Assembly (NCBI GenBank): GCA_964583975.1
Contig: CAZOXU010000002.1
Span: 155,709-219,708 of the forward strand
DNA: 64,000 nucleotides
Direction: 5' to 3'
DNA from: an uncultured Planctomycetales bacterium
GTDB lineage: Bacteria > Omnitrophota > Gorgyraeia > Zapsychrales > Fredricksoniimonadaceae
The stretch's first letter is position 1. Every line of letters starts with the position of its first letter. The position numbers and the translations under genes are program-made. Under the pieces are notes generated by a model. That model made no database searches, was not told where the DNA came from, and saw only the letters and a list, made by a program, of their open reading frames with translations. Below, piece by piece: positions 1,535-18,994 of this stretch.

Positions 1535-1975
1535 TTAACCAGGACACAACCCCACAAAAACTCCTTGAGGGTTACATTGGATTATACTGCCATTATGAGA
1601 ATCATATAGAATAATAATTGAATCCGAACTAGTTAGACCATTGGCATCATTACCCGTAGCTCCAACTGCGACAACATTAATTGAAAGAAAATTAACTGCG
1701 AGACTAACATAATTAACACTTTGGCTTGAACCAGGTATCGCACAAAGGTTATTAATTTCAGGCCAAAATACATCTGGATGTGCTAAGACACATAATAACG
1801 ATTTGTCTTTCATGTCCTTTAAAGTCATCAAAACCTCTGCCGCCTTGCTTTTATTAACCATTAAAAAATAATTAGGTACAGCAATAGCCATTAAAACTCC
1901 AAGAATCACCAGAGTGACAATAATTTCAATTAACGTAAAACCTTTTTTTCTGGAAGTTGTTTTCATAAGAAACAT
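1535..1975 (-). CDS. type IV pilin-like protein (prepilin N-terminal methylation domain)
   Basis: N-terminus ..KKG|FTLIEIIVTLVILGVLMAIAVP has a class III signal and Glu+5. The true start may be MKTTSRKKG at 1966. The C-terminus has a Cys pair (QCNPQGVFVGLCPG). It is a paralog of the pilin at 2169..2630. Confidence 0.75.
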   Translation of the reverse strand: MFLMKTTSRKKGFTLIEIIVTLVILGVLMAIAVPNYFLMVNKSKAAEVLMTLKDMKDKSLLCVLAHPDVFWPEINNLCAIPGSSQSVNYVSLAVNFLSINVVAVGATGNDANGLTSSDSIIILYDSHNGSIIQCNPQGVFVGLCPG

Positions 1976-2168: not shown

Positions 2169-2630
2169 TTAATTCGGACATAGCCCTACAAAAACTCCTT
2201 GGGATAAACATTGATTAACACTACCATCAAAATTATAAAGTATAATAATATTATCCCCACTGGTTAGTCCATTAGAACCATTTCCTGTCGCATCAATTTT
2301 CACAATATTAATCAGCCACCCAAAATCAACAGCCATAGTCGCATAAGTAGCTGAAGCACTCGTACCTACATATCCACATTTAGCCGTCAAGTCCATCCAA
2401 GTACCTTCATGAGCATGAGCTTGAACACAAGGCAATGTTTGATCTTTTATATTTTTTATAGTCAACATTACTTCTGCCGCCTTACTTTTATTAATCATTG
2501 AGAAATAAGCAGGCACAGCAATGGCAGCTAACACACCAAGAATGATCAAGACAACGATCAATTCAATTAAAGTAAAAGCTTTTCGTTGTTTAAAGATTCT
2601 CATCCTGTTCCTTAATTCATCAATTTCCAC
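2169..2630 (-). CDS. type IV pilin-like protein, paralog 2
   Basis: ..RKA|FTLIELIVVLIILGVLAAIAVP prepilin motif (Ala at -1). C-terminus GLTSGDNIIILYNFDGSVNQCLSQGVFVGLCPN is nearly identical in pattern to pilin 1. A possible internal start MRIFKQRKA (2603) would remove the overlap with pepF. Confidence 0.75.
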   Translation of the reverse strand: MEIDELRNRMRIFKQRKAFTLIELIVVLIILGVLAAIAVPAYFSMINKSKAAEVMLTIKNIKDQTLPCVQAHAHEGTWMDLTAKCGYVGTSASATYATMAVDFGWLINIVKIDATGNGSNGLTSGDNIIILYNFDGSVNQCLSQGVFVGLCPN

Positions 2631-8476: not shown

Positions 8477-8650
8477 TTATTTCTTTTTTAGTTTAGCAGC
8501 TTGATCTTTGCTTAATACGCGCCAGCATTCGTGTGTGCCTTTAGGGGATTTGGCAACAGCAAAAAAACGTCCACTCTTTTCTTTCACTGAATAATCTGCT
8601 GTTTCAAACTTACCTTTAGTTTTAACATCATAAAAAGATAATTTCTCCAT
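8477..8650 (-). CDS. small basic hypothetical protein (57 aa), not in ORF track
   Basis: Strong RBS-ATG context AAGGAGGATTTGATG on the minus strand. Translation is MEKLSFYDVKTKGKFETADYSVKEKSGRFFAVAKSPKGTHECWRVLSKDQAAKLKKK*. It fills the rsfS-yraN gap. Confidence 0.45.
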   Translation of the reverse strand: MEKLSFYDVKTKGKFETADYSVKEKSGRFFAVAKSPKGTHECWRVLSKDQAAKLKKK

Positions 8651-8716
8651 CAAATCCTCCTTAAAAAAGATTGGTTATTAAATTTGAGTTGAGTGTAAAG
8701 GATAAAAAATACTTTG

Positions 8717-9094
8717 TCAATGACTTAAATAGGTTAAATCAAAGGCGCTGATAATATGTTTAAGCTGGGGCTGGTCAACAGAATCAAAATTGATGGAAAC
8801 AACATCAAAACGGGACATAACCTCAATTGTCTTAAATTTATATTTCAAATAACATAAAGCTAGTCTAACCATCCTAAGCTGTTTAGTCGAACCAACAGCT
8901 TCAAAAGGAGCCCCAAACTGGCTAGATTTCCTGGTTTTGACCTCAATAAAGCAAATAACCTTACCTTCCTGAGCTATCAAATCGATTTCGCCTAATTTGT
9001 TGCGAAAATTTCTTTCAAGAATTCTATATCCCTTGCTCTGTAAGTATTTACAGGTAAGCTCTTCTCCTAATCTGCCTAAAGATTGATTATTCAT
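8717..9094 (-). CDS. yraN: YraN/UPF0102 family predicted endonuclease
   Basis: 125 aa. N-terminus GRLGEELTCKYLQSKGYRILERNFRNKLGEIDLIA is the UPF0102 signature. Overlaps the upstream gene by 4 nt. Confidence 0.8.
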   Translation of the reverse strand: MNNQSLGRLGEELTCKYLQSKGYRILERNFRNKLGEIDLIAQEGKVICFIEVKTRKSSQFGAPFEAVGSTKQLRMVRLALCYLKYKFKTIEVMSRFDVVSINFDSVDQPQLKHIISAFDLTYLSH

Positions 9095-10341
9095 GGATTT
9101 AACTTGAAAATCCCTTTCTCTTGTTGGGTTTTGGATTCTTCCACAATCTCAGCTAGCATTTTGAGCCTGCGACTGTCAGCTTCATTAAGAATAGAATGCA
9201 TACTTTGAGCATATTGACTCAAGCGCTCCCTTTCTTCTTTGAGTACTCGTATCTCATTAAAAACATAGTCTTGGGAACCTTTGAGCAAGGTCTTATACCC
9301 AGGCTCAATCGCTGGATGAAGCATCACCTTATCTAACATCTGAGAAGCTTTTAAATACTGATCAATAGTCTTTAAATAAGCTAAACTCGAGGCTATCTTT
9401 TGAACTGCTAAATACCCCGTTGTCTGATCAAACATGGCGATATTCTTCACTTGAGCTTCAGTCAGAGGCACACCAAATACCGAAAACATTGATAGCTGTT
9501 GCGCATTGACTTCTCTATTAATCTTGTAATCATCCACTATTTGAGTCAAAGTTGATCCAAAATCCTGCCGATACTGGGCAATAAGCTCCCTACTTTCTAA
9601 TCGAGGCCCATAGATATTCACTGAATCGTTACTAACTGTCACCTTAGGTATAATTTGATTAATGATGGTTAAATCTTCGGAATTTTGGTTAACACGATTC
9701 AAAACCTTGCCCGTCACATTGACATTGCCAGAAATATTAAAATTACCGTTCTCAGGATCTTCCAAAGAGGCATAAGGAGTGGAAAAACTACCTTCATGTA
9801 GATAGTCCAAACAATATTCAAAAGCTTGATCTATATCCTCTCTGCCAGAAGTCATGGAGTTCTTTAAACAGTCTAAAATAGCTTGTTTACGAAGTTTAAC
9901 TAAAGGGTCATCCACATTTTTTTCTAAATCTTCGCATTGCTGATAGCGCCTGTTTAATTTTAAGTTTCCTACTGTGTTAAGGTGTTTATAAAGATCGGCT
10001 AAGGTTGGAGAACTGTATTGCCAAACTAAAAGTCTGGATGTGGAAAGCTGTGTCATCAAGGTTTCTAATTCCAGATTGTTAAACTCAGGGCGTACCATTA
10101 GATTCTTTAAACTTTCATGAAAATCATACCTATTACAACCCAAAGAAATCCCACTCCTTCTTAATTCATAATTATTCACCGGGGCAGCAAATGCATTGTA
10201 ATCATAACCGTCACGGTAGTAATAACCCCTTTCATCAGCTGATAGAGCTTGATCCATCTGAGTCTGATTCGGAGATTTAGAAAATACATCAGCAAAAGAA
10301 CACGATGGAATAAATAAAATTAGAATTAATAAGAAAATCAC
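9091..10341 (-). CDS. exported TraH-like protein (F-type T4SS pilus-assembly protein family), tentative
   Basis: 416 aa with a signal peptide. The segment RGYYYRDGYDYNAFAAPVNNYELRRSGISLGCNRYD aligns from memory with F TraH AGYATGGSLYARTQVKNVQLISMTLPDINAGCGGID: same 31-aa spacing to GC, then a GC-x3-D motif. C-terminal coiled-coil as in TraH. From recall only; not confirmed by search. Confidence 0.45.
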   Translation of the reverse strand: MIFLLILILFIPSCSFADVFSKSPNQTQMDQALSADERGYYYRDGYDYNAFAAPVNNYELRRSGISLGCNRYDFHESLKNLMVRPEFNNLELETLMTQLSTSRLLVWQYSSPTLADLYKHLNTVGNLKLNRRYQQCEDLEKNVDDPLVKLRKQAILDCLKNSMTSGREDIDQAFEYCLDYLHEGSFSTPYASLEDPENGNFNISGNVNVTGKVLNRVNQNSEDLTIINQIIPKVTVSNDSVNIYGPRLESRELIAQYRQDFGSTLTQIVDDYKINREVNAQQLSMFSVFGVPLTEAQVKNIAMFDQTTGYLAVQKIASSLAYLKTIDQYLKASQMLDKVMLHPAIEPGYKTLLKGSQDYVFNEIRVLKEERERLSQYAQSMHSILNEADSRRLKMLAEIVEESKTQQEKGIFKLNP

Positions 10342-10667
10342 CTAGGCTCCTGTTCCTTCATAACCCGATCAACAGCTTGTTGGGCTTTAATAATCCTGGC
10401 CACCTTTTGTCGTTGCCATAATAAATAAGCCCTAGCATTTTCTGGAGTGGGAGCCTCAAGTAAGGTCAGCATGGCGGAAGGCGGCATATAGTAGGCAACC
10501 TTACCATCGGCTCCTATGGTAGGATCTCTAAAATCAAATTCTTGCTTGGTTTCTGCCTTGGAAGCACCAATCTTACGATCAAAATAATCCAATGAACCCA
10601 TCTTATAGGGGTTGGCAGCATAGCTATTACTGGACATGATCCAAATTAAAATGAAGCAAATCCACAT
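10338..10667 (-). CDS. small exported protein (109 aa), possibly the N-terminal part of a TraF/TrbB-like protein
   Basis: Signal peptide MWICFILIWIMSSNSYA. Overlaps both flanking genes (4 nt and 41 nt). Combined with the next ORF the length is ~260 aa, which is TraF-like. Confidence 0.45.
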   Translation of the reverse strand: MWICFILIWIMSSNSYAANPYKMGSLDYFDRKIGASKAETKQEFDFRDPTIGADGKVAYYMPPSAMLTLLEAPTPENARAYLLWQRQKVARIIKAQQAVDRVMKEQEPR

Positions 10668-11163
10668 AACCCTTTATCCTTTGAGTTTTTCCATGATCCA
10701 TAATGATATAGGTTGGCGTTTGGCCAATTTCATATTTATTGGCCAATGCATTCTTGAAATCTAATGTGTACTCCAGATCTTTAGGAAAACCTCTTCCTTG
10801 GGAGCGGAAATATTCTATAAACTCTTTAACTGTAGACATGACATATACCTGGATAGCCCAATCAGCATGCTTTCTTTTAAGACTTCCTAGATCATGGATG
10901 GCTTTCTTACACCAAGAACATTGCGGATCAATAAACAACAAGATTTTTTTCGTATCAGATTTATTCTGTACGGCACTTACGATAGATTTTTTAGAATTAT
11001 TAGTACAATGTTCGCAGGTCGTCTTTAGAAAAATATCTCTAGAGTTAAAGATGGTTTCTTGGGCCCAGGACAACTCATTTGAGTTCCAATAAACCAAAAT
11101 CCCAAAAATTACCCTAAATACAACAGCTGCGTTGATGCCAGTAAATCCAAACATAATGACCAT
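10627..11163 (-). CDS. thioredoxin-fold thiol:disulfide oxidoreductase (TraF/TrbB/DsbA-like), CxxC active site
   Basis: LLFIDPQCSWCKK is the classic thioredoxin motif. A second CEHC pair lies upstream. N-terminal hydrophobic segment. Confidence 0.6.
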   Translation of the reverse strand: MVIMFGFTGINAAVVFRVIFGILVYWNSNELSWAQETIFNSRDIFLKTTCEHCTNNSKKSIVSAVQNKSDTKKILLFIDPQCSWCKKAIHDLGSLKRKHADWAIQVYVMSTVKEFIEYFRSQGRGFPKDLEYTLDFKNALANKYEIGQTPTYIIMDHGKTQRIKGYVDLLHFNLDHVQ

Positions 11164-12019
11164 CCTTAGATTGCTTACCCTGTTCCAAAAGTGCTGGATT
11201 CTCTCCTATAGGAAAACAAGCAGTCTTTTGGGGAAAAACCATCTGTACCTTATCAATGCGAAGATTGGGCTTGAAATCTAACCTTGATTCAATAACATTA
11301 GCTGAGAAAGTTTCCCCTGCCAGACTTATAGAACGAAGAGCATCTACAATTGAGGCCACAGGCGCACTAGGAGTTATGACAAATCCCTGCCTCGGGTAAA
11401 GCGGCCCCCAATCTTTCATACATTGATCTTCGGCTCCTATAGGTAGATTATGACATTGCCCTCCTATCCGTGCTGCAACTAGACTCTGAGGATGCTTCTT
11501 CTCTATATCTGCTCTTCTCCAGGAAATACTATCTGCTTCGGAAAGATACCGAATCCCCAAGGTCCGATTAGGAATATCTGAGCAAACAGCATCTTCAAAG
11601 ATTTCACCTAATGGATAATCATAAAGGTGGACTTCATTAAATTGCAAATTGCTAGAACTTAAACTTTGAGAAGAACTGCCACTGGTAACCTTTAAATCTT
11701 TAAGACCATTTATCAATTCAAGTTCTTTCTGAGCCACCCGTTTAGTCAGCCCTTCCAAAGGAATCCCATATTCAGCAATGGTGTAATCTCCTGGCATTTT
11801 GACAGTTTCCATAAATAATTCTGGCTGCCAATAACGGATTTTGATCCCAATGGGAAATTCTAGACGTTCTGGTTTGGGACACACCCCTTCAAACCTAATC
11901 TGTAAACATTGAAAGTCTGCTTGGAGGGATAATTCCGTAATACTTTTCTTAAGTGAACTTGTTTCTTCTTGAGCAGCAGCGGGCAATACCAATATAAACA
12001 AAAGAACGAATATTCTCAT
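11114..12019 (-). CDS. exported TraU-like protein (F-type T4SS periplasmic protein family), tentative
   Basis: 301 aa with signal peptide MRIFVLLFILVLPAAAQ and ~9 Cys. From memory, YWQPELFMETVKMPGDY / HLYDYPLGEIF...IRYLSEADSISW / WIYWHQRSCCI align with F TraU GYWEPMALTDVTRSPGCM / HWYKYPLTYWL...IAYLSEIDPTWT / YLMWRKRNCVFL. Not confirmed by search. Confidence 0.5.
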   Translation of the reverse strand: MRIFVLLFILVLPAAAQEETSSLKKSITELSLQADFQCLQIRFEGVCPKPERLEFPIGIKIRYWQPELFMETVKMPGDYTIAEYGIPLEGLTKRVAQKELELINGLKDLKVTSGSSSQSLSSSNLQFNEVHLYDYPLGEIFEDAVCSDIPNRTLGIRYLSEADSISWRRADIEKKHPQSLVAARIGGQCHNLPIGAEDQCMKDWGPLYPRQGFVITPSAPVASIVDALRSISLAGETFSANVIESRLDFKPNLRIDKVQMVFPQKTACFPIGENPALLEQGKQSKDGHYVWIYWHQRSCCI

Positions 12020-12873
12020 AATTTTATAATAAAGGCCAACGCATAAAATGGTGGCACATGGAAATCATTAGATATGGGATGCGAGTGTGGCTGGTCATTG
12101 CCTAAGGTGTTTGTATTCATTGTTCCTGTTAAAGCAGCTTGAGGATCAATTTTGATATAGGTTGGACCACCTGGTTGAAAGGTTGAATCATTAGTATTAA
12201 CTGTAAAATGGTGACTCGGCATTTCAGCAATCGTCAGAATATGGGGACCTGTCTGTCCTCCATGATGATGTGTTACCGAGCCACCTACAGATAGCGGGTT
12301 TCCCATAATATTGCTTTGAGCAATGCCAGCAATATCCTGTCTCGCTCCCACAATAAATTTATCACGAAGATCAGGCGTACCATTACTTCCATCACACAAA
12401 GCCCATCCAGTGGGAATATTAGCAATGGCCCCAGACCAGGCCACAATAACCCCCGAGGCAAGACTTGCTGATCCTAAAGATGAAATTGTACTAGAGACAT
12501 TGCTTCCATTAACTACCGCGGCAGGTAAATGACTAGCTACCAAATTTGCCCATTGTGAAGGAACATCGCTACTTACCGTCATCTGCAGACTGCTACTCGA
12601 AATTAAATACGCATTATGCCAAGGATTAAGCGCGTTCCATTGGGAATTTAAATATCCTTGAGACTGCATAGTTGGAATATCTACAGGCCAAACATGGTGA
12701 TCCACATAATAATTTCTGCCTGCTTCTTGAAGCATGGCCATTTCCAAAGCTGTTTTCTCACCAGCACGAATTTGAACTGAACGAATAGCTACAGGTATTA
12801 TAGAAGATGCTAATACAGCCATAACGCCCATAACAATAGACAGCTCTATAAGAGAAAAAGCACGCTTGTTCAT
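12016..12873 (-). CDS. type IV pilin N-terminal domain fused to a phage tail-collar (MdpB-like) domain
   Basis: N-terminus MNKRA|FSLIELSIVMGVMAVLA (prepilin cleavage/methylation motif, Glu+5). C-terminal half VAWSGAIANIPTGWALCDGSNGTPDLRDKFIVGA ... HHHGG ... PPFYALAFIIKL matches the tail-collar domain signature (G.W..CDG ... PPY.ALAFIMK). Confidence 0.7.
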   Translation of the reverse strand: MNKRAFSLIELSIVMGVMAVLASSIIPVAIRSVQIRAGEKTALEMAMLQEAGRNYYVDHHVWPVDIPTMQSQGYLNSQWNALNPWHNAYLISSSSLQMTVSSDVPSQWANLVASHLPAAVVNGSNVSSTISSLGSASLASGVIVAWSGAIANIPTGWALCDGSNGTPDLRDKFIVGARQDIAGIAQSNIMGNPLSVGGSVTHHHGGQTGPHILTIAEMPSHHFTVNTNDSTFQPGGPTYIKIDPQAALTGTMNTNTLGNDQPHSHPISNDFHVPPFYALAFIIKL

Positions 12874-13012
12874 GGAATTTCTTTCTTAAGGGGGAGATTT
12901 TAAGACTTTATTCGATGGGGAATCGAATGTTTGATGAATAATCAAACTTAATCACATATTACAAATAAAAATAAATTTGTCAACAGCAATTAATTCACAC
13001 ATTGATTTTTAA

Positions 13013-13873
13013 TCAAGCATGTGGATGAGCTTGATCGTAAACCTTCTTGAGCTTATCAGTGGTCAGGTGAGTATAAATCTGTGTTGTAGATAAATTAACA
13101 TGCCCCAAAAGCTCTTGAACTGAGCGCAAATCAGCACCATGATTCAATAAATGAGTAGCAAATGAATGACGAAACATGTGCGGAGTCACATGCTGAACCA
13201 TAGCCTCTTTAAGAACATATTTATTAATAATATTACATACACTTCGTGCTGTTAAACGCGTACCGCTTTTATTGAGAAAAAGTGTCTCTTTTTGATGTGA
13301 TCGCTTTTCTGTATATTCTTTAATGGCTTCAAGAGCTTTATCACCAATGGGAACTAATCTCTCTTTTCTTCCCTTTCCCATGACCCTAATAATATTGCCA
13401 ATAAAATCTACATCTTCAAGATCAAGTCCTACAAGTTCACTAACCCGGATGCCTGTAGAATAAAGCGTTTCAAAAATAGCCTTATCTCTTAGATTACTAA
13501 TTTTATCTGTTGAAGGAGATTCAATAATTTGTGTCGCCTCCTGTTCACTTAAAAAATGTGGCAGGGGTTTGTCTAGCTTGGGTGTTACCAAAAGACTGGC
13601 TGGATTGGTTGAAACAATCTTCTCACGTTGTAAATATCTAAAGAAACTCCTTAAAGAAGAAAGTTTGCGCGCCACCGAACGAGGCTTCAAATTCTTAGTC
13701 CTCATCTGGGCCAAAAATCTTCTTAATGTCGTATAATTTACTTTTTCTAAAGGTACTTCAGTTAAAAAAACTAGGAATTCTTCTAGATCTATTTTGTAAT
13801 TAAGCAAGGTATGCTGGGAATAATTCTTTTCAACTTCTAGATAGGAAAGGAATTTCTCTAGATATTTTTTCAT
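13013..13873 (-). CDS. tyrosine site-specific recombinase XerC/XerD family
   Basis: 286 aa. RHSFATHLLNHGADLRSVQELLGH...TQIYTH catalytic motifs. Confidence 0.85.
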   Translation of the reverse strand: MKKYLEKFLSYLEVEKNYSQHTLLNYKIDLEEFLVFLTEVPLEKVNYTTLRRFLAQMRTKNLKPRSVARKLSSLRSFFRYLQREKIVSTNPASLLVTPKLDKPLPHFLSEQEATQIIESPSTDKISNLRDKAIFETLYSTGIRVSELVGLDLEDVDFIGNIIRVMGKGRKERLVPIGDKALEAIKEYTEKRSHQKETLFLNKSGTRLTARSVCNIINKYVLKEAMVQHVTPHMFRHSFATHLLNHGADLRSVQELLGHVNLSTTQIYTHLTTDKLKKVYDQAHPHA

Positions 13874-15837
13874 TGATTAACAACAGGAAGTTTATTAGCT
13901 ATAAATTTACATTCTGGAAAACGGCTACAACCATAAAAGGTATTACCTCTCATCGCACGACGCTCAACCAATTTTCCCGTACAACCAGGTTGTTGGCAAG
14001 GAACATCTGTGGTAAATGGTTCAGCATGTTTGCAATCCGGAAATCCAGTACAGCTAATAAATCTTCCGCGACGTCCCCATTTAATAGCTAAGGGTTTGCC
14101 GCATAATGGACAATTACGATCAATGGTAGCATGGGTCTTTTGGATATTAGCATCTGCATGTTCTAATTCCTCCTTAAACGGCCCATAAAATTCTTTAAGA
14201 ACAATCTCATATTTTGTACTACCTTCTTCAATTAAATCCAGCTCTTCTTCCATATGGGAAGTAAAACTAATATCCATAATCTTTTTAAAATATTCCATCA
14301 AAAGAGTACAAATCTTAATCCCCAAATCAGTAGCATCAAAATACCCACGATCACGCAACACATAGTTACGAGCCACCAAGGTCCCGATAATAGAAGCATA
14401 GGTACTTGGACGGCCAATCCCATTTTCTTCTAACGCCTTAACTAAACTAGCTTCGGAATACCTGGCAGGTGGTTTAGTAAAATGCTGAGTTGCCTTAACT
14501 TCTTTTAAATCTAAATTATCCCCTTTAGTATATAAAGAAGGATCGAGCTTGCCTTCTTCTTGTTCGTCAGCATCTTTATACACAGACAAATACCCTGCAA
14601 AACTTAAGATTGACCCCGAAGCTCCAAAGGTAAATCGACCAGCCCCCACTTCAATCTTAGTCTGGTCAAAAATGGCTTGGGTCATCTGACAGGCAATGAA
14701 TCGCTTATGGATCAAATCATAAAGACGGAATTGATCTTCGGTTAAATACTTTTTAACATCCTCAGGCTTTCGATGGACATCGGTTGGGCGAATAGCTTCG
14801 TGAGCTTCCTGAGCATTCTTTTTGGATTTAAATTTATTAGGCTCTTCTGGTAGAAATTTAGCTCCATACTCTTTTTTAATATAAGACCGCACTTTTTCTA
14901 AAGCTTCATTGGCGATATTAACTGAATCCGTACGCATATAGGTAATAAGACCAACCGCCTCCTCATCACCTATTTCCACACCTTCATAAAGAGTTTGAGC
15001 AACCGACATTGTGCGGTTCGTGTTGAAGCCTAATTTACCAAAAGCTTCCTGCTGCAAAGTACTAGTAATAAATGGTGGCGGAGCATTACGTTTAACTTGC
15101 TTCTTATTAATAGCATCAACTTTAAATGACTGCGCTTTAATTTCTTTGACAGTATCTTGAGTCTGACTCTCTGTATTTAAATCAATTTTCTTGCCATCAA
15201 TTTTCTCTAGAGCGGCTGTAAGAATATCCTTAATCCCCTTTTTCTGAAGATCGACAGCGATCTGCCAATATTCTTGAGGGACAAAGTTCTTGATCTGCGC
15301 ATCACGCTCAACGATCAAACGTAATGCCACAGACTGCACTCTACCTGCACTCAAACGTGAACCAACCTTTTTCCATAAAACAGGAGAGATCTGATAACCT
15401 ACGATACGATCTAAAACACGACGAGCATTTTGGGCATCAACTTTCTTACGATCAAATTCTCTAGGATGTTCAAAAGCTTTTTTAACGGCTTCCTTAGTAA
15501 TTTCATTAAAAACAACACGTAAGACCTTTTTACCCTTCCCGATATGTTCAATCAAATTCCAGCCGATAGCCTCACCTTCACGGTCAGGATCAGTTGCTAT
15601 ATAAATCTCTTCAACCCCTTTGGCCTCTTCTTTGAGTTTCTTTAAAGTCTTCATCTTATCGCGGACGACAATAAATTGAGGATTAAAATCAGCTTCCAAA
15701 TCGACACCTAATTTAGACTTAGGCAAATCAATTAAATGCCCCATAGAAGCAGTGACTTTAAATTTCGTACCCAGAAATTTATTAATCGTCTTAACTTTGG
15801 CGGGAGACTCTACGATAACTAATGCTTTTGCAGCCAT
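13870..15837 (-). CDS. topA: DNA topoisomerase I with C-terminal Zn-ribbon repeats
   Basis: 655 aa. TOPRIM N-terminus (LVIVESPAKVKTI), type IA core. C-terminal CPLCGK / CTGFPDC / CSRFPEC zinc ribbons. Confidence 0.9.
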   Translation of the reverse strand: MAAKALVIVESPAKVKTINKFLGTKFKVTASMGHLIDLPKSKLGVDLEADFNPQFIVVRDKMKTLKKLKEEAKGVEEIYIATDPDREGEAIGWNLIEHIGKGKKVLRVVFNEITKEAVKKAFEHPREFDRKKVDAQNARRVLDRIVGYQISPVLWKKVGSRLSAGRVQSVALRLIVERDAQIKNFVPQEYWQIAVDLQKKGIKDILTAALEKIDGKKIDLNTESQTQDTVKEIKAQSFKVDAINKKQVKRNAPPPFITSTLQQEAFGKLGFNTNRTMSVAQTLYEGVEIGDEEAVGLITYMRTDSVNIANEALEKVRSYIKKEYGAKFLPEEPNKFKSKKNAQEAHEAIRPTDVHRKPEDVKKYLTEDQFRLYDLIHKRFIACQMTQAIFDQTKIEVGAGRFTFGASGSILSFAGYLSVYKDADEQEEGKLDPSLYTKGDNLDLKEVKATQHFTKPPARYSEASLVKALEENGIGRPSTYASIIGTLVARNYVLRDRGYFDATDLGIKICTLLMEYFKKIMDISFTSHMEEELDLIEEGSTKYEIVLKEFYGPFKEELEHADANIQKTHATIDRNCPLCGKPLAIKWGRRGRFISCTGFPDCKHAEPFTTDVPCQQPGCTGKLVERRAMRGNTFYGCSRFPECKFIANKLPVVNQ

Positions 15838-17641: not shown

Positions 17642-18005
17642 TGTTTATCCCCTTTTCTTGGGACGGATTAGGAACATCTAAGCTCGCTATTGCCAACCCA
17701 CCTTCACTTGAAAAAATTTGAATATCCAGATGATCGCCTGGATTTGCAGCATAAGGAATGTTTCCTATAAACTTGCTTGGAGAATACTGGCGCGGAAAAG
17801 TAAAATTCTGAGATTCTTTTTGATTATTTGCTATGATCGTAACCAAACGAACATAATACCGATCCATTCGATCTGTTGGATGATCAGCTTCGATATGAAG
17901 TATTTGCGTATCAGGATTATAATCGACTTGAACATTTGTGGCAGGCGATGCCCAGGAGTTTGTATGAATAAAGATTCCCCATATAAGGATTAGCAAAAAT
18001 CTCAT
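17604..18005 (-). CDS. exported hypothetical protein (133 aa)
   Basis: Signal peptide. Overlaps pilD by 4 nt, so co-transcribed. No recognised family. Confidence 0.45.
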   Translation of the reverse strand: MRFLLILIWGIFIHTNSWASPATNVQVDYNPDTQILHIEADHPTDRMDRYYVRLVTIIANNQKESQNFTFPRQYSPSKFIGNIPYAANPGDHLDIQIFSSEGGLAIASLDVPNPSQEKGINNEQETLSIRKRP

Positions 18006-18994
18006 AAACGGTATATACCACCTTCAAGAATCCACTGTATTATAGCATCTCCCCAAAATAAACTTACTAAGGCACCTAAAACTATAAAAGGTCCGTAGGC
18101 AATGGTACTTTCTTTAGTGCGTATTTTTTCAACAATTCCTACTACCCCTCCAAAGAAAGGCGCTATAAAAAACGATAATAAAGCTACTTTCCAGCCCAAA
18201 AAAGCACCTATCATCGCCATAAGCTTAACATCTCCTCCGCCCATACTTTCTTTACGGAAAATAATGTCCCCGATCAAGCCCATCGCATATATTGTACCAC
18301 CTCCAATAATAAACCCAGCCATGGCAGAAGCTAAACCATGAAGATGAATATTCAATAATTGAGGACCTTTGATCCAATGAGCATTAACGACATAGATAAT
18401 TAACAATGAAGTAAGAATTAATATTTTAAGAGGCTTATCATCATACCCCTGCTCTTCCGCCATTAAATGTTTACAGAAGAAAGGATAAATCCATTCTAAA
18501 AATAAACACAAAAGAACTATGAACCCTGCAATAAATCCACCTACCAACAAATTCTCTGAAGAAGAATGAAGACTAGGGATTAAAGTACTTAAAATAAGCC
18601 CTGCCCACATGCCTCCTATGGAAATTTCATCTGGAATAATACGATGTTCAATATCTACAAAGGTAGCAACGATAAAACAAGAAACCATCACCAAATAGGC
18701 TGGTAATATAGAAATGGCGCCATAATAATTATAAAAAACCATAAAAACAATTCCTGTTAAAAGCTCAACCATCCAGTAGCGAAAAGCAATCTTCCCCTTA
18801 CAATGACGGCAACGCCCCCCAAGAAGCAACCAACTAATTAAAGGAATATTATCGTACCAAGCAATCGGTTTTTGACATTTAGGACAATGAGAAGAAGGAA
18901 AAACAACTGACTTTTCTTTAGGAAGTCTTACTATACATACATTCAAAAAACTGCCAATGATAGAACCTAGAATAAAAAAGAATACTGATCCCAT
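18002..18994 (-). CDS. pilD: prepilin peptidase (A24 family, PilD-like)
   Basis: N-terminal CPKCQKP...CRHCKGKI Zn-binding tetracysteine. Polytopic membrane protein. 330 aa. Confidence 0.8.
   Translation of the reverse strand: MGSVFFFILGSIIGSFLNVCIVRLPKEKSVVFPSSHCPKCQKPIAWYDNIPLISWLLLGGRCRHCKGKIAFRYWMVELLTGIVFMVFYNYYGAISILPAYLVMVSCFIVATFVDIEHRIIPDEISIGGMWAGLILSTLIPSLHSSSENLLVGGFIAGFIVLLCLFLEWIYPFFCKHLMAEEQGYDDKPLKILILTSLLIIYVVNAHWIKGPQLLNIHLHGLASAMAGFIIGGGTIYAMGLIGDIIFRKESMGGGDVKLMAMIGAFLGWKVALLSFFIAPFFGGVVGIVEKIRTKESTIAYGPFIVLGALVSLFWGDAIIQWILEGGIYRL

What the first reader, a model, noticed from the sequence alone, without database searches (positions are those of the whole stretch)
12016..12873. 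Type IV pilin N-terminus fused to a phage tail-collar (MdpB-like) domain
The sequence shows a class III prepilin signal (MNKRA|FSLIELSIVMGV, Glu+5) and a hydrophobic alpha-1 helix. After a ~100-aa Ser-rich linker comes a C-terminal domain with tail-collar signatures (TGWALCDGSNGTPDLRDKFIVGA ... PPFYALAFIIKL). Tail-collar domains are carbohydrate and receptor-binding modules of phage fibres and contractile injection systems. Grafted onto a pilin stem, such a domain would be displayed on or at the tip of a T4P/T2SS-like filament. This predicts a modular pilus-tip adhesin. It is the first gene of the Tra-like operon, and PilD (18002..18994) is available for processing.
Basis: partly seen in the sequence, partly recalled or inferred. 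Interest (0 to 1): 0.7.

Follow-up and report, generated by a model that had tools for sequence, protein, structure and literature searches.

The report
Pilin carrying a phage tail-fibre tip
This gene encodes a type IV pilus subunit whose outer end is a phage tail-fibre receptor-binding domain; it belongs to a large undescribed family in the tiny host-dependent Omnitrophota and probably decides which cells their pili attach to.

Summary
The ORF is real: 12016..12873, minus strand, 285 aa. Residues 1-131 form a complete type IV pilin, with signal MNKRA|FSLIE, Glu+5, Pro+22 and curated HMM cutoffs passed. Residues 141-285 are homologous over their full length to the trimeric receptor-binding tips of phage and PVC tail fibres (PDB profile E 2e-22; PHROG 3e-23). 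Pfam Collar is below threshold only because of a ~25-residue deletion: an ortholog at the same chromosomal locus scores 70.6 bits. All full-length members found come from Omnitrophota-type genomes. In most relatives the gene holds the PilV position of a type IVb pilus module nested in an F-type T4SS cluster. In the window's clade only pilin-collar/TraU/thioredoxin/small ORF/TraH remain together, at a fixed chromosomal site. This module evolves much faster than its flanks, and the collar subtype has been swapped in place. Best reading: a PilD-processed minor pilin displayed at a pilus tip, probably as a trimer, acting as an exchangeable target-cell adhesin. This is a new variant of the known "modular pilin" and PilV/CofB tip-adhesin theme. 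Filament display, trimerisation and ligand are inferred, not shown.

The parts
12016..12873 (-). Whole gene: 285-aa bimodular ('modular') type IV pilin with a tail-collar C-terminal domain
   Evidence: ORF. The family has 2124 hits, and the best 120 cover 77-100% of the query (nearly all at least 95%). The window protein is itself in the database as P0001 (100% identity), from an NCBI contig of 222,597 bp.
12481..12873 (-). Pilin module, aa 1-131: leader MNKRA, cleavage before Phe6, Glu+5, Pro+22, alpha1 helix (aa 8-59) and beta-sheet head
   Evidence: PF07963 and TIGR02532 above cutoff. AF2 pLDDT 93-98 for aa 11-130, helix 8-59 plus strands. Profile hits to geopilin, PilE and GspG. Foldseek hits to pilins 1ay2 and 6t8s. 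30% identity (E 1e-14) to the adjacent 156-aa minor pilin of V. archaeovorus.
12454..12480 (-). Short variable Ser/Gly-rich linker, aa 132-140
   Evidence: Lowest conservation in the protein (top-residue frequency 0.41, entropy 2.47). pLDDT drops to 68. One relative (P0141) has an insert of roughly 70 aa between the pilin and collar modules.
12019..12453 (-). Tail-fibre 'collar'-type receptor-binding domain, aa 141-285
12064..12228 (-). Hypervariable, indel-rich segment of the collar domain (aa 216-270): proposed specificity loops
   Evidence: Top-residue frequency 0.45, entropy 2.33 and 27 insert columns, against 0.81 for the collar core. It cannot be aligned by BLAST with the orthologous-locus protein P0131.
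12956..12983 (-). Promoter-like site (TTGACA-16-TAATAT) in the 139-nt gap upstream of the gene
   Evidence: This is a consensus match only, and the number of such sites in the region is not above the shuffled expectation.
11114..12019 (-). TraU-like exported protein with 8 Cys; its start overlaps the pilin stop (ATGA)
   Evidence: PF06834 TraU 2.5e-28, 99.8 bits. TIGR03756 5e-17. Overlap and Cys count.
10627..11163 (-). Thioredoxin-fold protein with two Cys-x-x-Cys pairs (C50/C53, C82/C85), TrbB/TraF-like; absent from several relatives
   Evidence: Thioredoxin_2 2.2e-8, with weak TraF and TrbB hits. Cys positions. Missing in L005, L091, L092 and L093.
10338..10667 (-). 109-aa exported protein, homologous to the N-terminal half of a TraF-like protein in relatives
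   Evidence: tblastn: L3_u242 residues 48-118 match it at 1.8e-10. u242 has weak TraF and thioredoxin hits in its C-terminal half.
9091..10341 (-). TraH-like exported protein, 416 aa
   Evidence: Homolog of a protein with a precomputed Pfam TraH hit, tblastn 2.2e-32. Weak TIGR03755 hit, 3.4e-7.
8717..9094 (-). UPF0102/YraN-family gene, overlapping TraH by 4 nt; follows TraH in both split and complete operons. Its functional link to the module is unknown.
18002..18994 (-). Prepilin peptidase PilD (A24 family with the N-terminal domain): the presumed processing enzyme
   Evidence: A24_N_bact 2.9e-36 and Peptidase_A24 4.2e-18. Same position in L091.

Best explanation
The gene encodes a minor, modular type IV pilin. 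Shown by sequence and modelling: a class III signal peptide, a complete small pilin fold (aa 1-131), a ~9-residue variable linker, and a ~145-residue domain homologous to the distal host-binding domain of phage and contractile-injection-system tail fibres. Inferred mechanism: PilD (18002..18994) removes the five-residue leader and methylates Phe1. The hydrophobic alpha1 helix then docks the protein into a type IV filament. Because the bulky C-terminal domain cannot pack into the filament body, and its solved homologs are obligate intertwined trimers, three copies probably cap the filament as a homotrimeric tip, as the type IVb minor pilins CofB and TcpB do. The hypervariable loops of the collar domain (aa ~216-270) would bind a surface glycan or protein on another cell. 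The module therefore acts as an exchangeable host-range determinant, like PilV of IncI/PAPI-1 conjugative thin pili or a phage receptor-binding protein. In most relatives the filament is a type IVb pilus encoded inside an F-type type IV secretion cluster. The adhesin would then tether a target cell (host, prey or mating partner) so that the secretion system can engage it. In the window's clade only the pilin-collar/TraU/thioredoxin/TraF-N-like/TraH unit remains at this locus. Which assembly machine it uses in this genome is unknown.
For: Pilin identity. Collar identity. The solved homologs were each deposited with three chains, and Pvc13 is described as three intertwined copies whose C-terminal region resembles host-binding domains of phage short tail fibres. 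One to three HxH motifs recur at aligned positions in the family and align to HxH motifs of Pvc13. Minor-pilin role: in 15 of the 20 related loci tabulated, a 142-184-aa PilS/bundlin-like pilin gene (PF05307, PF08805) lies just upstream, often followed by a 156-aa minor pilin, in the order secretin...ATPase-platform-pilin-(minor pilin)-pilin-collar. This is the R64/PAPI-1 pilN..pilS..pilV order. Specificity role: the collar scaffold is conserved but aa 216-270 are hypervariable with indels. At an orthologous locus with identical synteny (L091), flanking proteins are mostly 75-85% identical (DprA 67%, UPF0102 66%), the pilin stem is 61% identical, and the C-terminal domain is a different (canonical) collar subtype alignable for only 26 residues. 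Origin: the pilin module is a paralog of the neighbouring minor pilin, and the collar module is 44% identical to Sec-secreted Omnitrophota collar proteins. Native gene: module GC is 39.5% against 38.6% for the window, the six genes overlap one another, and the rest of the window is chromosomal core. Precedents for the mechanism: modular pilins, the CofB trimeric tip and PilV2 binding LPS.
Confidence: 0.7

Rival explanations
1. The protein is a component or cofactor of the Tra (T4SS-derived) periplasmic complex, not a pilus adhesin. The pilin-like N-terminus would only anchor it in the inner membrane, as with pseudopilins. The collar domain would work with TraU, TraF-N-like and TraH in the envelope, for example as a stalk or adaptor, and no extracellular filament would display it.
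For: When the ancestral operon split, the gene stayed with TraU/TraH with an ATGA overlap, and this 4-5-gene unit is kept at one chromosomal site across a clade. TraU (38% identity) and TraH (47%) evolve as fast as the pilin, which is compatible with co-evolution. No pilus machinery lies in the window. In the F system, TraU, TraH, TraF and TrbB form a periplasmic interaction group.
Against: All characterised homologs of the C-terminal domain are extracellular host-binding tips. Hypervariable loops and subtype swapping fit exposure to a changing external ligand. In most relatives the gene directly follows pilin genes in a pilus operon. The split is probably a single ancestral event, so linkage is weak evidence.
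Confidence: 0.12
2. It is a tip adaptor for secretion rather than a direct adhesin. As with CofB-CofJ and TcpB-TcpF, the trimeric C-terminal domain would bind a secreted partner protein that the pilus exports or presents, and that partner would contact the target.
For: CofB's lectin-like trimer was repurposed to bind the secreted CofJ. Type IVb systems commonly have this secretion function (abstracts listed). Several small exported ORFs of unknown function lie in the operons.
Against: No conserved candidate partner was identified. The domain family is a direct receptor binder in phages and eCIS.
Confidence: 0.1
3. It is a leftover or misannotated prophage or contractile-injection-system tail-fibre gene (NCBI names one homolog 'tail fiber protein'), and the pilin-like N-terminus is fortuitous.
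For: One source names P0005 'tail fiber protein'. The C-terminal half hits only tail proteins in the phage and eCIS collections.
Against: There are no phage or eCIS genes nearby and the neighbourhood is chromosomal core. The pilin module is conserved, confidently folded and passes curated models. Synteny with pilus and Tra genes holds in more than 20 loci. None of the 60 collar-only proteins examined carries a prepilin signal.
Confidence: 0.02
4. It is the major subunit of its own filament, so the collar domain would decorate the whole fibre rather than only the tip.
For: In this window no smaller major pilin is adjacent. Raynaud et al. note that a location in the filament body cannot be excluded for modular pilins if the linker is flexible.
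Against: The linker is only ~9 residues. The domain's homologs are trimers. Relatives encode a separate 142-184-aa PilS/bundlin-like pilin immediately upstream.
Confidence: 0.05

Closest known systems
PilV / PilV2, minor-pilin adhesins of conjugative type IVb thin pili (IncI plasmids R64 and TP114; ICE PAPI-1)
   Same: A prepilin with a conserved N-terminal pilin part and a variable C-terminal part that binds the partner cell's surface (LPS). In relatives it is encoded after the PilS-like major pilin in a secretin-...-ATPase-platform-pilin-adhesin operon that accompanies a conjugation-type T4SS. A PilV-N + tail-collar fusion has been reported once (UCP91044.1).
   Different: No Shufflon_N (PF04917) match. 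There is no shufflon and no Rci-type inversion system: no repeats were found, and the adjacent recombinase is a XerC-type gene in a conserved dprA-topA-xerC context. Variation arises by replacement of the domain between lineages rather than by inversion. The locus is chromosomal and lacks an adjacent relaxase or coupling protein. In the window the pilus genes are not adjacent.
CofB (ETEC CFA/III) and TcpB (V. cholerae TCP), trimeric type IVb minor pilins
   Same: A pilin module followed by a beta-rich C-terminal domain that trimerises, caps and initiates the pilus, and mediates contact. This is the best mechanistic model for how a trimeric fibre tip could sit on three pilin stems.
   Different: No sequence similarity was detected: the PDB profile search returned no chain named CofB or TcpB at E <= 1. 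The C-terminal fold family differs (tail collar rather than beta-repeat plus H-type lectin). The protein is much smaller (285 aa) and its linker much shorter.
Modular pilins (Raynaud et al. 2021, PNAS; e.g. S. sanguinis PilB-vWA and PilC-lectin)
   Same: [quoted passage not shown]
   Different: This architecture is missing from their catalogue of 264 architectures. IPR011083 (which I recall as the tail-collar entry) appears only in two single-protein compound architectures, probably because most family members fall below the Pfam Collar threshold.
Receptor-binding tips of phage tail fibres and eCIS fibres (Pvc13 of Photorhabdus PVC, phage Pa223 fibre, Bizionia C24; Pfam Collar / MdpB, COG4675)
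   Same: Homologous over the whole C-terminal domain, including the GWxxCDG...PDLR core, the HxH motifs and the terminal PPYYALxFIMK strand.
   Different: Here the domain is attached to a pilin stem instead of a trimeric fibre shaft, in a context with no phage or eCIS genes. The window's subtype lacks ~25 residues of the canonical Collar motif.
F-type (MPF_F) and ICE-type (MPF_G; TIGR03755/TIGR03756) T4SS periplasmic proteins TraU, TraH, TraF and TrbB
   Same: The downstream genes are homologs of these proteins: Cys-rich, exported and accompanied by a thioredoxin.
   Different: In the window they occur without TraL/E/K/B/V/C and are translationally coupled to a type IV pilin gene. I found no description of this arrangement in the papers checked.

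Membership tests
Type IV pilin (class III signal peptide; PF07963 / TIGR02532) | Curated HMM for the N-terminal cleavage/methylation motif reaches its cutoff | tested here: met
   PF07963 21.8 bits against 21.2; TIGR02532 22.2 against 16.3. The Pfam margin is narrow.
Type IV pilin (class III signal peptide; PF07963 / TIGR02532) | Short basic leader ending in Gly (or Ala), Phe/Met at +1, Glu at +5, then ~20 hydrophobic residues | tested here: met
   MNKRA|FSLIELSIVMGVMAVLASSIIPV. Glu+5 is invariant; Phe+1 and Pro+22 are at least 90% conserved. Position -1 is Ala here and Gly in the family consensus.
Type IV pilin (class III signal peptide; PF07963 / TIGR02532) | Long alpha1 helix packed on an antiparallel beta-sheet head | tested here: met
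   AF2 model: helix 8-59, strands to residue 131, pLDDT 93-98. Foldseek hits 1ay2 and 6t8s. This is a prediction, not a solved structure.
Type IV pilin (class III signal peptide; PF07963 / TIGR02532) | Cleaved and N-methylated by a prepilin peptidase and polymerised into a filament | not testable with these tools
   PilD is encoded at 18002..18994, but no biochemical data exist.
Phage tail collar domain (Pfam PF07484; MdpB/COG4675) | Pfam Collar model reaches its gathering score | tested here: not met
   20.1 bits against 24, covering only profile positions 1-22 of 57. The cause is a ~25-residue deletion between CDG and PDLR. Relatives on the same pilin stem score 55.6-83.7 bits over positions 1-57 of 57, including the ortholog at the identical locus.
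Phage tail collar domain (Pfam PF07484; MdpB/COG4675) | Homology across the whole domain to characterised tail-fibre tips | tested here: met
   9qgo 2.3e-22, 9nxk 1.2e-17, 6ov6 1.1e-14. phrog_5795 2.7e-23 and phrog_1800 'tail collar fiber protein' 6.2e-16. 44 phage records cover at least 80% of the domain.
Phage tail collar domain (Pfam PF07484; MdpB/COG4675) | Same three-dimensional fold | tested here: inconclusive
Phage tail collar domain (Pfam PF07484; MdpB/COG4675) | Homotrimeric assembly | not testable with these tools
   Homologs were deposited as three chains, and Pvc13 is three intertwined copies. No multimer prediction was available.
PilV shufflon adhesin (PF04917, IncI/PAPI-1 thin pilus) | Shufflon_N domain in the N-terminal part | tested here: not met
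   No PF04917 hit at E <= 1.
PilV shufflon adhesin (PF04917, IncI/PAPI-1 thin pilus) | Invertible C-terminal cassettes with repeats and an Rci-type recombinase | tested here: not met
   Only short, chance-level repeats in 8500-14000. The adjacent tyrosine recombinase lies in the conserved dprA-topA-xerC context, also seen in L091-L093, and is absent upstream in L005.
PilV shufflon adhesin (PF04917, IncI/PAPI-1 thin pilus) | Last pilin gene of a type IVb pilus operon (secretin, ATPase, platform, PilS-like pilin) linked to a conjugation-type T4SS | tested here: inconclusive
   Met in relatives. Not met in the window, where no such genes occur.
CofB/TcpB-type trimeric type IVb minor pilin | Sequence or fold homology to CofB/TcpB | tested here: not met
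   The PDB profile search at E <= 1 returned no chain named CofB or TcpB. The resemblance is architectural only.
Modular pilin (sensu Raynaud et al. 2021) | N-terminal pilin module plus a C-terminal domain not specific to pilus biology, joined by a short linker | tested here: met
   definition.
F-type T4SS gene cluster (for the operon) | TraU and TraH homologs | tested here: met
   TraU 99.8 bits. The TraH-like protein is homologous to one with a precomputed Pfam TraH hit. In the window it has only a weak TIGR03755 hit.
F-type T4SS gene cluster (for the operon) | Core TraL/E/K/B/V/C, a coupling protein and a relaxase | tested here: not met
   Absent from the 64-kb window. TraG_N through TraC are present in relatives. 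No coupling-protein or relaxase homolog was recognised next to the cluster in the flanks inspected; those flanking ORFs were read by eye, not scanned against Pfam.

The most novel reading that the evidence does not exclude
The pilin-collar protein could be the targeting tip of a chromosomally fixed machine, widespread in Omnitrophota, in which a type IVb pilus is built into an F-type type IV secretion system. This would be a conjugation apparatus domesticated by ultrasmall host-dependent or predatory bacteria to recognise, dock onto and perhaps deliver macromolecules into host or prey cells, with a phage-style swappable receptor-binding domain setting host range. In the window's clade, TraU/TraF-N/TraH would have been retained as dedicated partners of the pilin (for folding, trimerisation or envelope passage of the tip), which would be a function for these proteins outside any T4SS.
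Probability: 0.25. Interest if true: 0.8.

Novelty: new variant of a known kind. Interest (0 to 1): 0.58.

Why it matters
Omnitrophota are abundant, uncultured, mostly ultrasmall bacteria thought to live on other cells. How they recognise partners is unknown, and published work mentions their pili only in general terms. This family offers a concrete, testable host-recognition candidate: a small pilin whose tip domain comes from the protein family that sets host range in phages and has been re-engineered to retarget PVC injection systems. That domain is swapped between otherwise syntenic genomes. The family also adds a large, previously uncatalogued architecture to the modular pilins. Finally, it shows two unusual gene arrangements. 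One is a type IVb pilus module nested inside an F-type T4SS cluster with no adjacent relaxase or coupling protein. The other is a stable pilin/TraU/TraH unit separated from the rest. Both raise the question of what TraU and TraH, whose roles remain poorly defined even in the F plasmid, actually do.

Tried and rejected
- **Prophage or eCIS remnant:** rejected. No phage genes lie nearby, and the Serratia plasmid hits to the C-terminal half sit in eCIS-like clusters unrelated to pili.
- **Shufflon-type variation:** rejected. There are no inverted-repeat cassettes, and the neighbouring recombinase is a housekeeping XerC-type gene.
- **Fusion present in other phyla:** not found. None of 60 collar-only loci from many phyla has a prepilin signal, and no plasmid record covers at least 80% of the protein.
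- **Fold-level confirmation of the collar domain:** inconclusive with both the full-length and the domain-only AF2 models.
- **AFDB fold search:** the library was unavailable.
- **Expression evidence in V. archaeovorus:** the Kizina 2022 paper is not held, and the supplements of Lonsing 2025 contain none of the terms searched.
- **Literature on 'Omnitrophota + TraU' and 'pilin + tail collar':** no description of this family. The only relevant item is the single PilV-collar fusion in Milman et al. 2023.
- **Does this genome keep the TraG_N..TraC and pilus-machinery half elsewhere?** Not determined.
- **A further large protein search with TraC:** not run.
Full report
**Observation**

- The N-terminus passes both curated prepilin models: PF07963 scores 21.8 bits against a cutoff of 21.2, and TIGR02532 scores 22.2 against 16.3.
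- In an alignment of 50 homologs, Glu+5 is invariant. Phe+1, the SLIE core and Pro+22 are at least 90% conserved.
- The leader is five residues long and ends in Ala. The family consensus at that position is Gly.
- PilD at 18002..18994 has both A24 domains.

**Anatomy**

- An AlphaFold2 model built from the alignment gives a long helix (residues 8-59) and a beta-sheet head up to residue ~131, with pLDDT 93-98.
- The best structural matches for this part are gonococcal pilin and C. difficile PilA1. The alignment profile also hits geopilin, PilE and GspG.
- The real linker is residues ~132-140. It is the least conserved stretch of the protein.

**C-terminal domain**

- Pfam Collar is below threshold in the window protein: 20.1 bits against 24, covering only profile positions 1-22 of 57.
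- The family profile nevertheless matches, over the whole domain, three solved proteins:
  - the C-terminal region of the Photorhabdus PVC fibre Pvc13 (9qgo, E 2.3e-22);
  - the phage Pa223 fibre (9nxk, 1.2e-17);
  - the Bizionia C24 protein (6ov6, 1.1e-14).
- PHROGs gives tail families at 2.7e-23 and 6.2e-16, the second named 'tail collar fiber protein'.
- 44 phage records cover at least 80% of the domain at 31-37% identity.
- BFVD hits are named 'Microcystin-dependent protein' and 'Phage tail collar domain'.
- The below-threshold Pfam score has a simple cause. Compared with the canonical motif, the window protein lacks about 25 residues between CDG and PDLR.
- Relatives with the same pilin stem (P0131, P0137, P0167, P0242) score 55.6-83.7 bits over the full Collar model.

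**Family**

- The 90%-clustered database holds 2124 hits. The best 120 cover 77-100% of the query, nearly all at least 95%, and are 264-308 aa long.
- At 50% clustering, roughly 35-40 representatives align from the pilin N-terminus into the collar core.
- In species-representative genomes, all full-length matches are in MAGs labelled Omnitrophota/Omnitrophica, including the complete genome of Ca. Velamenicoccus archaeovorus LiM. The exceptions are six TPA MAGs labelled Planctomycetales or Planctomycetia and one labelled 'bacterium'. Some of these carry the same operon at high identity, so I infer they belong to the same phylum.
- Sixty loci from many phyla match only the collar domain. None has a prepilin signal; most have a Sec signal peptide.
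- The pilin module is a paralog of the neighbouring 156-aa minor pilin (30% identity, E 1e-14).
- The collar module is 44% identical to Sec-secreted Omnitrophota collar proteins.
- The fusion therefore looks like a lineage-specific graft of a resident secreted domain onto a duplicated minor pilin.

**Context**

- In the window, six same-strand genes overlap one another by 4, 50, 41, 4 and 4 nt: pilin-collar, TraU-like, a thioredoxin with two Cys-x-x-Cys pairs, a 109-aa protein, TraH-like and UPF0102.
- TraU scores 99.8 bits on PF06834.
- The 109-aa protein matches the N-terminal half of a TraF-like protein in relatives.
- In most relatives the gene sits mid-operon. The order is:
  - TraG_N-like, VirB2-like, TraL, TraE, TraK, TraB, TraV and TraC (TIGR02746, 1.4e-111);
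  - then a small ORF, a secretin, two to four unknown proteins, a T2SSE ATPase and a T2SSF platform protein;
  - then a bundlin/PilS-like pilin, often a 156-aa minor pilin, and the pilin-collar gene;
  - then TraU, thioredoxin/TraF-like proteins and TraH.
- The inner block has the gene order of the R64/PAPI-1 type IVb thin-pilus operon, with the pilin-collar gene in the PilV position.
- The cluster is flanked by housekeeping genes. No coupling-protein or relaxase homolog was recognised in the flanks inspected, which were read by eye rather than scanned against Pfam.
- The window's clade (window, L005, L006, L091, L092, L093) keeps only the second half at this site. In four of these (window, L091, L092, L093) it lies between dprA-topA-xerC and UPF0102-rsfS-argS-recJ.
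- The 64-kb window has no homolog of the operon's ATPases, platform protein, secretin or PilS-like pilin. Otherwise it is chromosomal core.

**Evolutionary signal**

- L091 has exactly the window's synteny.
- TopA, XerC, RecJ, ArgS and PilD are 75-85% identical between the two genomes. DprA is 67% and UPF0102 66%.
- Against that, the pilin stem is 61% identical, the small protein 50%, TraH 47% and TraU 38%.
- The C-terminal domain is a different, canonical collar subtype, alignable by BLAST for only 26 residues.
- Within the window's subtype the scaffold is conserved (top-residue frequency 0.78-0.81), but residues 216-270 are hypervariable with many indels.
- This pattern of a conserved stem, an exchangeable and rapidly diversifying tip, and a recombination-prone junction is what phage receptor-binding proteins and PilV adhesins show.

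**Mechanism (inferred)**

- PilD processes the protein, and the alpha1 helix inserts it into a type IV filament.
The type IVb minor pilins CofB and TcpB do this, and they also prime assembly.
- The variable loops would bind a surface structure on a partner cell.
- Where the pilus is nested in the T4SS cluster, the likely role is to tether the target for the secretion system, as PilV and PilV2 do by binding recipient LPS.
- Omnitrophota are mostly ultrasmall with host-dependent traits, and V. archaeovorus is an epibiotic predator. The 'target' may therefore be a host or prey cell rather than a mating partner.
- Cleavage, incorporation into a filament, tip location, trimerisation and ligand have not been demonstrated.

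**Rivals**

- A periplasmic role with TraU/TraH is suggested by the persistent linkage and the parallel fast evolution of these genes. It fits poorly with an extracellular-type, hypervariable receptor-binding domain.
- A CofB-like adaptor role for a secreted partner cannot be excluded.
- A phage-remnant reading is refuted by synteny.
- A major-pilin role is unlikely, given the short linker and the separate small pilin in relatives.

**Comparison and novelty**

- The design matches the 'modular pilin' concept.
- The plain pilin + collar architecture is absent from that paper's catalogue. There, the tail-collar InterPro entry (IPR011083, identified from memory) appears only in two single-protein compound architectures, one of them with the PilV N-terminal domain.
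- A single PilV + collar fusion was noted in a study of programmed inversions.
- Papers on Omnitrophota discuss type IVa pili, Tad pili and giant proteins, but not this family or any TraU/TraH link.
- Public annotations call members 'tail fiber protein' or 'prepilin-type N-terminal cleavage/methylation domain-containing protein'.
- I rate it a new variant of a known kind: a known strategy (tip adhesin grafted on a pilin), a new and large architecture, and an unusual genomic setting.

Noticed in passing
L013, L014, L023 (V. archaeovorus LiM), L085, L086; compare window 9091-12873: A roughly 20-25-gene chromosomal cluster found in many Omnitrophota-type genomes combines an F-type T4SS (TraG_N, VirB2-like, TraL, TraE, TraK, TraB, TraV, TraC ... 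TraU, TrbB/TraF-like, TraH) with a nested R64/PAPI-1-like type IVb pilus module. It has housekeeping flanks and no coupling protein or relaxase recognised nearby. I found no description of it in the Omnitrophota papers checked.
   Followed up: partly
window 1535-1975 (-) and 2169-2630 (-): Two tandem small type IV pilin genes (146 and 153 aa; N_methyl 1.9e-9 and 4.1e-8) with similar C-terminal halves. They are unrelated to the PilS-like pilin of the relatives' operon and lie next to an M3 oligoendopeptidase gene.
   Followed up: partly
window 9091-12873 compared with L091 8001-11257: TraU (38% identity) and TraH (47%) diverge far faster than most flanking housekeeping proteins (75-85%) between two genomes with identical synteny. 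The cause (co-evolution with the pilin tip, or surface exposure) is unexplained.
   Followed up: partly
window 10627-11163 (-): The thioredoxin gene, with two Cys-x-x-Cys pairs, is present in the window and L006 but absent from the otherwise syntenic L005, L091, L092 and L093. It appears to be a dispensable or recently gained accessory to the Cys-rich TraU and TraH.
   Followed up: no
L023 about 11328-12100 (V. archaeovorus LiM): A GNAT-family ORF, probably the toxin of a toxin-antitoxin pair (judged from the sequence, not scanned), is inserted on the opposite strand between the pilin-collar gene and traU, interrupting the otherwise tight coupling.
   Followed up: no
L025-L084 (collar-only loci): Many Sec-secreted collar-domain proteins from Omnitrophota, Elusimicrobia, Nitrospirae, Margulisiibacteriota and others share a conserved motif just after the signal peptide (about VPxLINYQGRL). 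This suggests a widespread family of non-phage, secreted 'tail-fibre-like' proteins.
   Followed up: no
phage record BK063672.1 (hit H28): A virus assigned to Methanosarcinales hosts has three places matching this collar domain (E 5e-10), so the domain type is also used against archaeal surfaces. That is of interest because V. archaeovorus is reported to prey on methanogenic archaea.
   Followed up: no
P0141: One family member carries an insert of roughly 70 residues between the pilin head and the collar domain. The junction therefore tolerates stalk-like extensions.
   Followed up: no
window 8717-9094 (-): A UPF0102/YraN-family gene overlaps the end of the TraH-like gene by 4 nt and follows TraH in both split and complete operons (window, L004, L005, L006, L008, L009, L013, L091-L093). 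The reason for this persistent linkage is unknown.
   Followed up: no
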